Source: Escherichia coli (GTDB lineage Bacteria > Pseudomonadota > Gammaproteobacteria > Enterobacterales > Enterobacteriaceae). From it: a stretch of DNA of 64,000 nucleotides. This document shows positions 43,201 through 46,200 of this stretch, piece after piece. The stretch lies in NCBI RefSeq assembly GCF_036507355.1, contig NZ_AP027877.1; one strand, written 5' to 3'. The stretch's first letter is position 1. Each line of letters starts with the position of its first letter. Position numbers: made by a program.

Positions 43201-46200
43201 TCATTGCGATAGAAGGGATAACGCTGATCATCCGTGCGGTCATCGCCTGATGCGACGCTGACGCGTCTTATCATGCCTACAAAATATGCCCGAATCGTAG
43301 GCCAGATAAGGCGCTTGCGCCGCATCCGGCATATAGCCGAGTAGAGGCAAAATTACTCTTCCCGGCCTTTACCCATACTTTTTTGGTCTTCATCCGGATA
43401 GTGTTTTTTTAGATATTCCAGGACGTTTTTATTGACCTTATGTTGGGTATACACCCACCCTTTCCAGTAATCAGGCTGGTCCAGGTAAACTTCTGGCGGA
43501 ATGGTGAAATCAGAAAGCGTTAACCATTCGGCTAACAGATCGGGGTTTCGTTTCTGTATCAACTGCAACAGCATAATCAGCGACATGGCAGAGGCAGGAG
43601 CCGTACTATCGCCGCTTAAATACTTCCACACTGTCGACCGGTTCGAACGAAAAAGGATCGGTAGCAATGCCCGGTCCAGATTCATTTCATTAAAAATCTT
43701 CTCAAATTCATTCATTTAAATTTTCCTGCCTTGCGTAAACCTCTTAAAAATTGAGATTTATCAAAGAAACGCATTTTAGCACACATCAGGAACCGCTTCA
43801 CGTTTAGTCCAGAAACGGAATTTATTTCGCTTATCAAAACAAGTCGTTACTCTTCTTTACGCTAAAATAGCATAAAATGACTTTCAAAATTATTTATTAA
43901 AGAAACGGATTAAATTTCTTATAGTCAGTGTTTGCGCTTACACAGGACAAAAATGCGCTTTACATCACACAAATGGCGGCGTAGATTTCGATCATATTGC
44001 AACGAAAATTAATTCTTATAGAAGCGCAAGAAGTTTCTATAAGAAACCAAAATAAACTTAATTTGATCGAGAAAAAATAAATGAAATCTGTAAAGTTGTC
44101 TTTACGGGCAGTCGTTGTTGCTACCATTGTGAGCCCATCTGCTTTTGCAGATGATACGGTTGAAGCGGCAGCGACAGAACTGACAGCGATTCACCCAGGT
44201 ATGTCTCATGATGAAATCGATCAAAAAATCAATCGCTTCATGATTCGGACAGGTAATACAGAAGCCGCGCAAGATTACCTGTTTTCTCATGGATATATGG
44301 ACCCACAGACAGGCGATAATATTTACCCCACCAGTACAGCCGTACAGACTGACAGCACTGTCACCGATAAAAACCAGGCAGATCGCGACGCGGCGCAAGA
44401 TACCGCCATTCAGAATGCACACAATATCGCAAGCATTGCGGCGGCAAATGCAGATGACGCCAAAAAAGCGCTTACCACTGCGCAATCTGCAATTGATGCG
44501 AACAAGGGAGCTATTGCTGATACTCAGAAAGATGTCGCAGATGTTAAAGCAAGTGCAGATCATGCCAACGAGAACGCTAATACCGCGTTGATGAATGGCC
44601 AGAAACTTTCCGGTGTCGTCAGCGACAACAAAAACCAGATTGAAAAAAACAGTACGGCGATTACCGAACAGCAGGAACAAATCACTGCCACGCAAAAAAC
44701 CGTTGCCGCCACTGCTGATGCGCAACAATCACAGTCTGAAGCCCAACAAACGCAGATTACAGAGCAACAGAAGCAGATCGCAGCCACAGAAAAAACGGTC
44801 GCTGCAATCGGCGATCCCCAGTCAACTGCGCATTATCAAAAGATGATTAATGCCAAACTGACAGCGCAAAATGAAGCCAATGAACGTTCAACCGCTGATC
44901 AGGGGCAGAGAATTAATGACCTGGCTTCCAATGTCGCGACGCAACAGCAAATCGATAGCGTGCAATACGGTGAACAAATTCGAAACCTTGCGCAAGACTC
45001 GGTCCAAACGCTCCAGGAGTTAACAAACACGCAAAAACGTGTTGCAGATAACAGCCAGCAAATCAATTCGCTCAATAACAACTTCAGTTCGTTGAAACAC
45101 GAAGTGGAAGATAACCGTAAAGAGGCTAATGCGGGTATTGCGTCAGCCGTCGCTATTGCTTCACAGCCTCAAGTTAAGACAGGTGATTTTATGATGGTGT
45201 CTGCCGGGGCGGGTACATTCAACAATGAATCTGCGGTATCTGTCGGTGCTTCGTTTAATGCTGGAATTCATACGGTAATTAAAGCGGGAGTCTCTGCGGA
45301 TACACAATCTGATTTCGGTGCGGGTGTCGGCGTGGGGTATTCGTTCTAATTTTAATAGCAATTTCTTATTCGCAATATTCCGCAGTTTATTTAAGGTTAA
45401 CAATGATGAATAGCTCCATTAAATCCTTTTCCCTGCTGGCTGTTATATTACTGGCTGGCTGTAGTTCACCCGCTTCCCGCATCGCAGATTGCCAGGCGCA
45501 GGGCGTCAGCCATGACACCTGTTATCTCGCAGAACAGCAGCGCCAGACGGCTATTTTAAGTGCTTCCGAAGAGCAGGCATTTAAAAATGCAGAAGCCGCA
45601 CAACATGCCCAGGCGGCAAAGAAAGCCATTTATAAAGGATTTGGCATGACCTTTAGAATGAGCAGTAAAAACTTTGCTTATCTCAATGATTCATTATGTG
45701 CAATTGATGAAAACAATAAAGATGCCACTGTTTATCAGTCAGGTCTGTATAACGTCATTGTTTATCATCACACAGGAAAAGTCGCCTTAATGAAAGAAGG
45801 CCAGTTCGTGGGTTATTTAAAATGAAGGAGCAAAGAAAAATACCCCTGACGCATATTATGATTATCGGTGCGTTTATTTTTGCCTTCTTGCAAGTAGTAT
45901 TATTAGCCTCCCTGGTTCACGCTGTGAATGTTAACAACGAAATCCAGGAAGGCTTATTTCAGTCGGGGCGCATTATGGTAGAAAGTTTGCAGCATATTCT
46001 TTCGGTGCAAACGGGGATTAACTGATTTTCACCCCGCCCGATGATGACAGCAGCCGGAGAGATTTTCGATAATCGGGCAGTCGGCGCTGTCATCACCGGG
46101 GCAGGCATTCGCCAGCGCCAGTAGCTGGTTGCGCATAGATTGCAGTTCTTCGATATGCCGTTCGATCTCCGCCACCTTCTCCAGCGTACGACGTTTGACG

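What the first reader, a model, noticed from the sequence alone, without database searches (positions are those of the whole stretch)
44660..44830. Tandem duplication inside the stalk of the TAA-like protein
Two consecutive ~23-aa units (ITEQQEQITATQKTVAATADAQQ and ITEQQKQIAATEKTVAAIGDPQS) are encoded by near-identical DNA. This suggests stalk length can vary by repeat gain or loss, as seen in other coiled-coil adhesins.
Basis: seen in the sequence. Interest (0 to 1): 0.25.

Follow-up and report, generated by a model that had tools for sequence, protein, structure and literature searches.

The report
Old internal repeat in adhesin stalk
The two similar 23-residue stretches are real but are the diverged remains of an ancient duplicated stalk module in a small E. 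coli surface-fibre protein (YadA-type anchor), so this copy of the gene is not prone to slippage, although related versions of the gene do differ in length by gaining and losing such modules.

Summary
The flagged units exist (aa 194-216 = nt 44660-44728; aa 226-248 = nt 44756-44824 of the 422-aa ORF 44081-45349). They are not adjacent: a 9-aa spacer gives a 32-aa/96-nt offset. Their DNA is not near-identical: 46/69 nt, third codon positions 8/23, and nothing found by Tandem Repeats Finder (TRF). At protein level the repeat is far beyond chance (z≈10).

Orthologues show that each unit is the first half of a 38-52-aa module, QQxQIxATxKTVAAxGD-x6-YQxMINA. Unit 1 of this allele lost its conserved second half through a 60-nt deletion flanked by GCCAC.

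The gene encodes a short trimeric-autotransporter-like protein: signal peptide, about 270 aa of helical stalk, and a YadA anchor. It lies in the E. coli island OI-29, between ybbJ and cueR.

Alleles range from 338 to 717 aa. They carry 2-3 copies of this module, 0-3 copies of a 123-aa module (98% DNA identity in one allele) and 1-2 copies of a 14-aa unit; the window has lost one copy of the 14-aa unit. Stalk-length variation is therefore real for the family. The flagged pair itself is old and keeps the same 32-aa spacing in every allele that shares the truncated unit 1.

In passing: the O157:H7 allele is Z0639, published as the transcription factor GmrA, which conflicts with this architecture.

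Verdict: ordinary, low-to-moderate interest.

The parts
44081..45349 (+). Gene for a 422-aa YadA-anchor (trimeric-autotransporter-like) protein. It is an allele of the E. coli OI-29 gene Z0639/ECs0548 ('gmrA').
   Evidence: ORF. Pfam YadA_anchor at 42.1 bits. PDB anchors of AtaA, Hia and YadA match aa 328-421. Synteny qmcA-ybbJ-hyp-TAA-lipoprotein-hyp-cueR. Published gmrA deletion primers flank the orthologous CDS.
44081..44149 (+). Predicted Sec signal peptide, MKSVKLSLRAVVVATIVSPSAFA. This allele has L9R (CGG at 44105-44107).
   Evidence: Sequence inspection and hydrophobicity: mean KD 2.60 over AVVVATIVS, against 3.11 in other alleles. All other alleles have L9. No dedicated signal-peptide predictor was available.
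44150..44350 (+). Small conserved N-terminal domain (aa 24-90; short helices at 27-69). It has no known head-domain match.
   Evidence: AF2 pLDDT about 76-82 for aa 30-80. Nearly invariant columns in alignment A2. No Pfam hit.
44660..44728 (+). Flagged unit 1 (aa 194-216, ITEQQEQITATQKTVAATADAQQ). It is the first half of stalk module 1, truncated in this allele.
44703..44712 (+). Junction of the 60-nt (20-aa, GDVKTAARYQSMINALQTAT) deletion in module 1 relative to the 456-aa allele. The breakpoint is at 44707|44708 and is ambiguous within the GCCAC microhomology.
   Evidence: DNA alignment of the window with L004 and L001. Protein alignment.
44729..44755 (+). 9-aa Q-rich spacer (SQSEAQQTQ) between the flagged units. 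Together with the end of unit 1 it forms an 11-residue step in the heptad pattern.
44756..44881 (+). Complete stalk module 2 (aa 226-267, ITEQQKQIAATEKTVAAIGDPQSTAHYQKMINAKLTAQNEAN). The flagged unit 2 is its first 23 residues (44756-44824).
44807..44815 (+). I243-G244-D245, the centre of a 9-residue step (VAAIGDPQS) in the heptad pattern. It is the only helix break in the stalk and a putative beta-layer.
   Evidence: G and D are invariant in 13 aligned units. The helix breaks at 244-245 in the AF2 monomer and at each xGD in the linked-trimer model. Register layout. The comparison with the nonad beta-layers of PMC4786415 is an inference.
44975..45016 (+). The single remaining copy of a 14-aa (42-nt) stalk unit (QIRNLAQDSVQTLQ). 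The O145:H28 and most other alleles have two copies. The junction of the loss is at 45001|45002.
   Evidence: TRF period 42 x 2.0 copies in L006.
45167..45346 (+). YadA-like membrane anchor (aa 363-422) with four predicted beta-strands.
43353..43715 (-). Divergently transcribed 120-aa gene of the island (Z0640 equivalent).
   Evidence: Only a weak MqsA-antitoxin-type match, E 0.088.
45403..46025 (+). Two small downstream island genes: a 140-aa lipoprotein (Z0638 equivalent) and a 67-aa hydrophobic protein.

Best explanation
The flagged segment is the N-terminal halves of two copies of an ancient, tandemly duplicated stalk module. The module has the consensus QQxQ[IL]xxTxKTVAAxGD-x6-YQxM[IV][ND]A-x3-A and a period of 38-52 aa in other alleles. 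It lies in the helical stalk of a short, head-less, YadA-anchored surface protein encoded by the E. coli genomic island OI-29.

Shown. (1) The duplication is real at protein level. (2) Its synonymous sites are near-randomised. (3) It is present as at least two copies in the alleles examined in detail (338 to 717 aa) and as two units in a 35%-identical E. coli paralogue. (4) Module 1 of this allele lost its conserved GD...YQxMINA half through a 60-nt deletion flanked by the 5-nt repeat GCCAC. (5) This allele also lacks one copy of a 14-aa unit that its closest relatives have twice, which makes it the shortest 'long-type' allele.

Inferred. (1) The protein trimerises into a coiled-coil fibre whose length sets how far the small N-terminal domain projects from the outer membrane. 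(2) Family-wide length differences arise by unequal homologous recombination between recently duplicated, still similar modules (123-aa, 38-aa, 14-aa) and by occasional microhomology-mediated deletion. (3) The old pair at 44660-44824 is too diverged to recombine and is kept by selection on stalk structure. (4) The invariant xGD sits in a 9-residue step of the heptad pattern and may form a beta-layer.
For: Repeat significance and codon analysis. No DNA tandem repeat in the window gene. Allele comparison showing the full module and the 60-nt and 42-nt indels with their flanks. Census of architectures: module spacing of 32, 38 or 52 aa, 2-3 modules (a strict motif count that missed some degenerate copies), 0-3 large modules, 1-2 short units. 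DNA repeats in other alleles: 114 nt x 2.5-2.8 copies at 84-88% matches, and 369 nt x 2.9 copies at 98%. The new copy is 89% identical, against 63-67% for the old pair, in every allele examined. Orthologous units are at least as similar as paralogous ones. YadA anchor and PDB anchor hits. AF2 monomer: helix 92-243, break at G244-D245, helix 246-360, four C-terminal strands. Heptad layout with a single 11-residue and a single 9-residue step. Invariant residues K..A.GD......YQ.M..A...A across 13 units from diverse relatives. Conserved synteny in E. coli, E. marmotae-type and other Escherichia loci.
Against: No experiment or oligomer model supports trimerisation, surface display or a beta-layer. 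The linked-trimer AF2 model was uninformative (mean pLDDT 37.7) and the monomer model is only moderate (mean pLDDT 63). The heptad register was assigned with a home-made score and by eye, not with a calibrated coiled-coil predictor. Recombination as the mechanism of module gain and loss is inferred from end states, not observed. The one functional study of the orthologue (Z0639/GmrA, PMC5826968) reports a cytoplasmic DNA-binding activator and no adherence defect for the island deletion. That does not fit an adhesin role. The L9R change in the signal peptide could impair export of this particular allele.
Confidence: 0.8

Rival explanations
1. One reading: the two units are a recent tandem duplication with near-identical DNA, acting in this gene as a recombination or slippage substrate, so that the copy number of this unit changes readily between strains.
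For: The same module occurs in three copies in the 497-aa allele, where the extra copy is 89% identical in DNA. Family length polymorphism is extensive.
Against: In the window the DNA identity is 67%, third codon positions match at 8/23, and there is no TRF hit. The longest shared stretch reported is an 18-nt match at 78%. The arrangement is identical in all alleles with the truncated unit 1. The 20 listed complete genomes, mostly O145/O145:H28, have the same locus span.
Confidence: 0.08
2. The similarity is not homology. It is convergence or compositional bias in a Q/A/T-rich heptad sequence.
For: The stalk is compositionally biased, and many weaker internal matches exist (scores 27-42). Coiled-coil noise gives spurious SMC, ATG16 and TMF hits.
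Against: The score is 76 against 34.9±4.0 in composition-preserving shuffles, with 0 of 1000 reaching it. In alleles with the complete unit 1 the similarity extends over about 41 aa, including the non-heptad GD...YQxMINA part (25/41 identical). The two-unit order is conserved across alleles.
Confidence: 0.02
3. The protein is what the literature says its O157:H7 orthologue is: a cytoplasmic transcriptional activator (GmrA) that binds the fliA promoter. On this reading the repeated helical units are an oligomerisation or DNA-binding coiled coil rather than a surface stalk.
For: PMC5826968 reports EMSA and ChIP-qPCR binding of Z0639 to the fliA promoter, a motility defect of the deletion mutant that is complemented by the gene, and no adherence defect of the island deletion. 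The paper's deletion primers flank exactly the orthologous CDS.
Against: The O157:H7 protein matches YadA_anchor at 45 bits against a cutoff of 22.7 and starts with a typical signal peptide. No DNA-binding family reaches significance in either allele; TMF_DNA_bd gives E 0.6-1.1, which is coiled-coil noise. PDB sequence matches are all TAA membrane anchors. The tagged constructs used (N-terminal His, C-terminal 3xFLAG) would mask the signal peptide or the C-terminal barrel signal (inference).
Confidence: 0.07

Closest known systems
Z0639 / ECs0548 of E. coli O157:H7 (island OI-29; published as 'GmrA', and earlier annotated 'Saa-like protein')
   Same: Same chromosomal site between ybbJ and cueR, with the same neighbours. 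Same signal peptide type, N-terminal domain, two stalk modules, 14-aa units and anchor. About 68% identity in alignment A2. blastn gives 74% over the 3' half.
   Different: It is 338 aa rather than 422. It lacks the roughly 100-aa DIDAN...NTALMNG module entirely, and its module 1 keeps the GD...YQxMINA half that the window allele has deleted. Its published function as a transcription factor (PMC5826968) does not match the domain architecture found here.
Trimeric autotransporter adhesins (type Vc secretion; YadA, Hia, AtaA, EibD, UpaG/EhaG)
   Same: C-terminal YadA-type anchor with four strands, preceded by a long heptad-based helix with N-at-d type layers such as IxxNxxx. Mosaic, repeat-rich stalk, as described for the family (PMC2373917).
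   Different: No recognisable head, neck or stalk-repeat domains. Very short. The stalk sequence family is tiny: only 22 cluster representatives at E<=1e-3 among 1.84 billion. No solved structure covers the stalk.
Saa, the STEC autoagglutinating adhesin, with a variable number of C-terminal repeats
   Same: An E. coli YadA-like adhesin whose alleles differ in the number of C-terminal repeats (review PMC6024878). That the repeat is a 37-aa unit is from my memory of Paton et al. 2001, which was not available. This is the same kind of length polymorphism.
   Different: No detectable stalk homology. tblastn against 72,556 plasmids found only anchor matches, and no stalk homologue on a true plasmid. 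The plasmid TAA I inspected is a different, head-bearing protein. Follow-up studies found no clear dependence of Saa function on repeat number.
'Periscope' variable-length surface proteins (PMC8201768)
   Same: Concept: rod-like repeats with high DNA identity allow intragenic recombination, so strains project a terminal domain to different heights. The 717-aa allele (369-nt repeats at 98%) fits this description.
   Different: Those proteins are built of globular repeat domains and are mostly Gram-positive. The window allele has no high-identity DNA repeats.
Nonad beta-layers in trimeric coiled coils (Hartmann et al. 2016, PMC4786415)
   Same: A 9-residue step a-b-c-[xxD]-e-f-g is embedded in heptads. 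VAA-IGD-PQS here compares with IEN-KAD-KAD and MAT-KDD-IAN there. The helix break is predicted exactly at G-D.
   Different: This is sequence resemblance only, and the consensus differs (xGD here, KAD/KDD there). No trimer model or structure was obtained.

Membership tests
Trimeric autotransporter adhesin (type Vc) | C-terminal YadA-like membrane anchor (PF03895), four beta-strands per chain | tested here: met
   42.1 bits against a cutoff of 22.7, aa 363-422. AtaA, Hia and YadA anchor chains match aa 328-421. Four strands at 371-419 in the AF2 model, at low pLDDT.
Trimeric autotransporter adhesin (type Vc) | N-terminal Sec signal peptide | tested here: met
   By inspection and hydrophobicity only: MKSVKLSLRAVVVATIVSPSAFA|DD, conserved in all alleles. 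No dedicated predictor was available. The L9R change in this allele weakens the hydrophobic core.
Trimeric autotransporter adhesin (type Vc) | Coiled-coil stalk running into the anchor | tested here: met
   Continuous helix 92-243 and 246-360. Heptad phase is constant over about 100 residues, with defined 11- and 9-residue steps.
Trimeric autotransporter adhesin (type Vc) | Adhesive head or neck domains (YadA head, Trp-ring, GIN, neck) | tested here: not met
   No such Pfam or NCBIfam family, even at E<=1. There is only a roughly 45-aa helical N-terminal domain of unknown type.
Trimeric autotransporter adhesin (type Vc) | Obligate homotrimer displayed on the cell surface; adhesion phenotype | not testable with these tools
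   The linked-trimer AF2 attempt was uninformative. The only phenotype data, for the O157 island deletion, show no adherence defect (PMC5826968).
Variable-number tandem repeat / 'Periscope'-type length-variable surface protein | Tandem repeats with high DNA identity inside the gene | tested here: not met
   Window: no TRF array, and the flagged pair is 67% identical. The feature is met in other alleles: 369 nt at 98% and 114 nt at 84-89%.
Variable-number tandem repeat / 'Periscope'-type length-variable surface protein | Repeat copy number differs among strains | tested here: met
   At family level: 2-3 modules, 0-3 large modules, 1-2 short units; 338-717 aa. Not seen within one clone: the 20 listed complete genomes, mostly O145/O145:H28, have the same span.
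GmrA (Z0639) transcriptional activator | Orthology with Z0639: same locus and full-length homology | tested here: met
   Primer mapping, synteny, alignment A2.
GmrA (Z0639) transcriptional activator | A DNA-binding domain | tested here: not met
   No DNA-binding family is significant in the window protein or in Z0639. TMF_DNA_bd gives E 0.62 and 1.1, far below its cutoff.
Beta-layer (nonad) coiled-coil element | A 9-residue step between core positions with a central three-residue element ending in Asp | tested here: inconclusive
   The spacing V240(a)...T249(a) is 9 residues, with I243-G244-D245 in the centre. G and D are invariant. A helix break is predicted there. A beta conformation could not be tested.

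The most novel reading that the evidence does not exclude
The OI-29 protein family, including the published 'transcription factor' GmrA/Z0639, is in fact a head-less trimeric surface fibre. Its stalk is built from a family-specific module containing a beta-layer. Its length alleles (338-717 aa) are selected to set how far the small N-terminal domain projects, for example relative to O-antigen, capsule or the neighbouring giant type-I-secreted adhesin. On this reading the reported effect on flagellar genes is an indirect consequence of an outer-membrane protein, such as envelope-stress signalling, rather than promoter binding.
Probability: 0.2. Interest if true: 0.55.

Novelty: new member of a known kind. 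Interest (0 to 1): 0.27.

Why it matters
As flagged, the finding matters little. Internal repeats and length polymorphism are a textbook property of trimeric autotransporter stalks, and the flagged pair is an old, stable duplication.

Two by-products have some value. First, there is now a clear map of how this E. coli island protein changes length: three module sizes, plus microhomology deletions. That could serve strain typing, or tests of whether fibre length matters. Second, the O157:H7 orthologue has been published and reviewed as a DNA-binding activator of flagellar genes, yet the sequence has a signal peptide and an outer-membrane anchor that passes Pfam's curated threshold. That conflict deserves an experimental check, because it affects how OI-29 is interpreted in EHEC biology.

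Tried and rejected
- Tandem Repeats Finder (minimum score 30) on the window gene and on the 456-aa allele found no array.
- The generic repeat finder gave only short, low-identity matches.
- NCBIfam gave only SMC/Rad50-type coiled-coil noise, far below the cutoffs.
- A PDB sequence search found only anchor domains and nothing for the stalk.
- tblastn against plasmids, run to test the old 'Saa-like' label, found only anchor-level matches. The plasmid TAA I inspected is an unrelated head-bearing protein. Two full-length hits were whole chromosomes filed in the plasmid collection.
- The Saa primary paper (PMC100080) is not held, so the 37-aa repeat length rests on memory plus the review PMC6024878.
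- I ran an AF2 'linked trimer' (three copies of module 2 joined by 40-residue Gly/Ser linkers, with 13 aligned units) to test the beta-layer idea. Mean pLDDT was 37.7, so the geometry is unusable.
- No structure search was run. The monomer model is a single long helix of moderate confidence, so matches would be meaningless.
- The promoter/terminator scan gave counts no higher than shuffles for promoters and nothing decisive.
- Literature searches for this protein as a characterised TAA under another name found nothing.
- I considered and rejected a phase-variable contingency locus. There are no short-unit repeats, all indels are in frame, and there is no within-clone variation.
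Full report
**1. What is at the coordinates**

The window carries a 422-aa ORF at 44081..45349 on the + strand. 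ITEQQEQITATQKTVAATADAQQ is aa 194-216 (nt 44660-44728). ITEQQKQIAATEKTVAAIGDPQS is aa 226-248 (nt 44756-44824).

They share 16 of 23 residues. In a scan of all diagonals of the stalk, this pair is by far the best. Its BLOSUM62 score is 76 at offset 32, against 34.9±4.0 in 1000 composition-preserving shuffles, none of which reached it. The repeat is therefore real.

Two parts of the description do not hold.

- The units are not consecutive. Nine residues (SQSEAQQTQ) separate them, giving a 32-aa/96-nt period.
- The DNA is not near-identical. Identity is 46/69 nt, with 18/23, 20/23 and 8/23 matches at codon positions 1, 2 and 3. Only 6 of the 16 conserved residues use the same codon.

Tandem Repeats Finder at its most permissive setting finds nothing in the gene. 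The repeat finder recovers only an 18-nt, 78% match. This is an old duplication held together by selection on the protein.

**2. What the protein is**

- Pfam places a YadA-like membrane anchor at aa 363-422 (42.1 bits, cutoff 22.7).
- The only solved relatives by sequence are the anchors of AtaA, Hia and YadA.
- The N-terminus (MKSVKLSLRAVVVATIVSPSAFA|DD) looks like a Sec signal peptide.
- An AF2 monomer model built on 20 family members has mean pLDDT 63. It gives a small helical N-terminal domain, one helix from 92 to 243, a two-residue break at G244-D245, a second helix from 246 to 360, and four C-terminal strands.
- A simple core-position score gives one heptad phase from about I110 to V208.
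- The layout around the finding reads: IEKNSTA ITEQQEQ ITATQKT VAATADA / QQSQSEAQQTQ (11) / ITEQQKQ IAATEKT / VAAIGDPQS (9) / TAHYQKM INAKLTA.
- No head, neck or stalk-repeat family is detected.

The protein is therefore a short, head-less, TAA-like protein. Trimerisation and surface display are inferred, not shown.

**3. Where it sits**

The flanking genes are 99.6% identical to E. coli, so the window is from E. coli. The gene lies between ybbJ and cueR. Its neighbours are a divergent 120-aa gene, a 140-aa lipoprotein gene and a 67-aa gene. A type I secretion system and a giant Ig-like adhesin gene lie beyond cueR.

This arrangement recurs in O145:H28, O157:H7, E. marmotae-type genomes and others; UTI89 keeps the island but not the secretion system (see section 8). 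A homologue is present in 1414 of 5426 complete E. coli genomes. None of them is ≥99% identical to the window allele.

**4. What the orthologues say about the repeat**

Complete alleles measure 338, 339, 422, 436, 456, 459, 465, 497, 530, 556, 559, 577-600 and 702-717 aa.

The 456-aa allele is 97.6% identical in DNA to the window. It shows that unit 1 was originally longer: ITEQQEQITATQKTVAATGDVKTAARYQSMINALQTATADAQQSQSEAQQTQ. The window and the O145:H28 allele lack the 20 residues GDVKTAARYQSMINALQTAT. This is a 60-nt deletion whose ends share GCCAC.

With the complete unit, the two copies align over about 41 residues (25/41 identical). The true module is QQxQ[IL]xxTxKTVAAxGD-x6-YQxM[IV][ND]A-x3-A. 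Across 13 units from diverse relatives, the invariant residues are A, G, D, Y, Q, M, A, A and a nearly invariant K. All of these except the K and the first A lie in the half that unit 1 of the window has lost.

The modules are directly tandem in E. marmotae-type alleles, with a 38-aa period. They are spaced by 52 aa in most E. coli alleles, and by 32 aa in the window/O145:H28 lineage.

**5. Does the stalk vary by repeat gain and loss?**

Yes for the family, at three scales.

- **(a) The flagged module.** The 497-aa allele has three copies. TRF finds a 114-nt period (2.5-2.8 copies, 84-88% matches). The new copy is 89% identical to its neighbour, while both are 63-67% identical to the old downstream copy.
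- **(b) A 123-aa module (…DIDAN…NTALMNG…).** It is absent in the 338-aa O157:H7/UTI89 allele, single in the window, double in the 556-600-aa alleles and triple in the 702-717-aa alleles. The 717-aa allele has a 369-nt period with 2.9 copies at 98% matches.
- **(c) A 14-aa unit (QIRNLAQDSAQAHE/QIESLTQDSAQTHQ).** It is present twice in most alleles and once in the window. This is the only length difference from the otherwise 99.2%-identical O145:H28 gene.

The old pair itself is 63-67% identical in DNA in every allele examined. Orthologous units are at least as similar as the paralogous units within one gene. For example, the window's u2 is 0.82 identical to O157 u2 but 0.69 to its own u1. The 32-aa arrangement is identical in all alleles with the truncated unit 1. 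The 20 listed complete genomes, mostly O145/O145:H28, have the same locus span.

It does not hold as a statement about this pair in this allele. The mechanisms are inferred from end states: unequal recombination between recent, similar copies, and microhomology-mediated deletion.

**6. Structural reading of the module (inferred)**

The step from V240 (core position a) to T249 (a) is nine residues, with I243-G244-D245 in the middle. In nonad beta-layers of trimeric coiled coils the pattern is a-b-c, then three beta residues ending in Asp, then e-f-g, as in IEN-KAD-KAD and MAT-KDD-IAN (PMC4786415). Three observations agree with this reading but do not prove it: the invariant G-D, the predicted helix break at exactly this point, and the same break in all three copies of a low-confidence linked-trimer model.

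In the window, unit 1 has lost its xGD element. The helix is predicted to run on through an 11-residue step instead.

**7. How wide the family is**

A search of 1.84 billion cluster representatives with the stalk alone returned only 22 proteins at E≤1e-3. They come from Escherichia, Obesumbacterium/Hafnia and unclassified Enterobacteriaceae. Several carry one xGD…RYQxM module. An E. coli paralogue carries two. The module is thus a signature of a small group of short TAAs in Enterobacterales.

**8. Relation to the literature**

The island is OI-29 of O157:H7 (2,643 bp; z0638, z0639, z0640). The paper PMC5826968 names Z0639 'GmrA'. It reports Z0639 as a transcriptional activator that binds the fliA promoter.

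I mapped the paper's deletion primers (its Table S2) onto an O157:H7 chromosome. The gmrA arms flank exactly the 338-aa CDS that NCBI annotates as a YadA family autotransporter adhesin (L008 4640-5656).

That protein matches YadA_anchor at 45 bits and has no significant DNA-binding family. TMF_DNA_bd, a coiled-coil family, reaches only E≈1. An earlier genome paper listed the Sakai orthologue ECs0548 as a 'Saa-like protein' (PMC2323221). I found no stalk homology to plasmid TAAs.

The published function and the architecture are hard to reconcile. I could not test which is right.

**9. Verdict**

The feature is an ordinary property of a known kind of protein. The window carries a compact allele shaped by two deletions. 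Interest is low to moderate, and comes mainly from the allele map and the GmrA discrepancy.

Noticed in passing
window 44081-45349; L008 4640-5656: The O157:H7 orthologue of this YadA-anchor protein is Z0639, published as the cytoplasmic transcriptional activator 'GmrA' (PMC5826968). The paper's deletion primers flank exactly the TAA-like CDS. The protein passes Pfam's YadA_anchor threshold and has no significant DNA-binding domain.
   Followed up: yes
window 49771-64000 (minus strand): The giant type-I-secreted Ig-like/BapA-SiiE-type adhesin gene next to the T1SS genes looks disrupted. There is an in-frame stop at 61877-61879 ('AAEIAVA*TISGQ') and a frameshift around 53490-53540. The O157:H7 copy is annotated as a pseudogene, while the O145:H28 UTME-3 copy is annotated intact.
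   Followed up: partly
window 44105-44107: Codon 9 is CGG (Arg), inside the hydrophobic core of the signal peptide. Every other allele retrieved has Leu. The remaining core, AVVVATIVS, is still hydrophobic, so export may or may not be affected.
   Followed up: partly
window 43353-43715 (minus strand): The divergently transcribed 120-aa island gene (Z0640 equivalent) has a weak MqsA-antitoxin-type match (E 0.088). To my eye it contains a helix-turn-helix-like stretch (RSNRSTVWKYLSG). If so, it would be a more natural DNA-binding candidate in this island than the TAA-like gene.
   Followed up: no
L001 8907-10130, compared with window 46026-46028: O145:H28 genomes carry an extra 1224-nt hypothetical CDS between the 67-aa gene and cueR. 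It is absent from the window and accounts for most of the ~1.4-kb difference in locus span (the 42-nt repeat copy accounts for a little more).
   Followed up: no
window 42440-42528: A 33-nt period, 2.7-copy tandem repeat (73% matches) lies inside qmcA. It encodes the Ala/Glu-rich C-terminal helix (…[37 protein letters not shown]…).
   Followed up: no
L007 6772-6869: UTI89-type genomes keep OI-29 but lack the T1SS and giant adhesin (OI-28). Only a 98-nt pseudogene remnant of the HlyD-family gene is left beside cueR, so the two islands are gained and lost independently.
   Followed up: no
window 44150-44290 (aa 24-70): A conserved ~45-residue N-terminal helical domain (pLDDT about 80) has no family match. 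It is the only candidate 'business end' of this head-less fibre, and it is nearly invariant across alleles whose stalks differ two-fold in length.
   Followed up: no
P0127 (E. coli, 397 aa; not in the window): A 35%-identical E. coli paralogue also carries two xGDVQT..RYQxM modules about 44 aa apart. A relative from Enterobacteriaceae FGI 57 has a different threefold ALVAAGNEIN repeat plus one such module.
   Followed up: no
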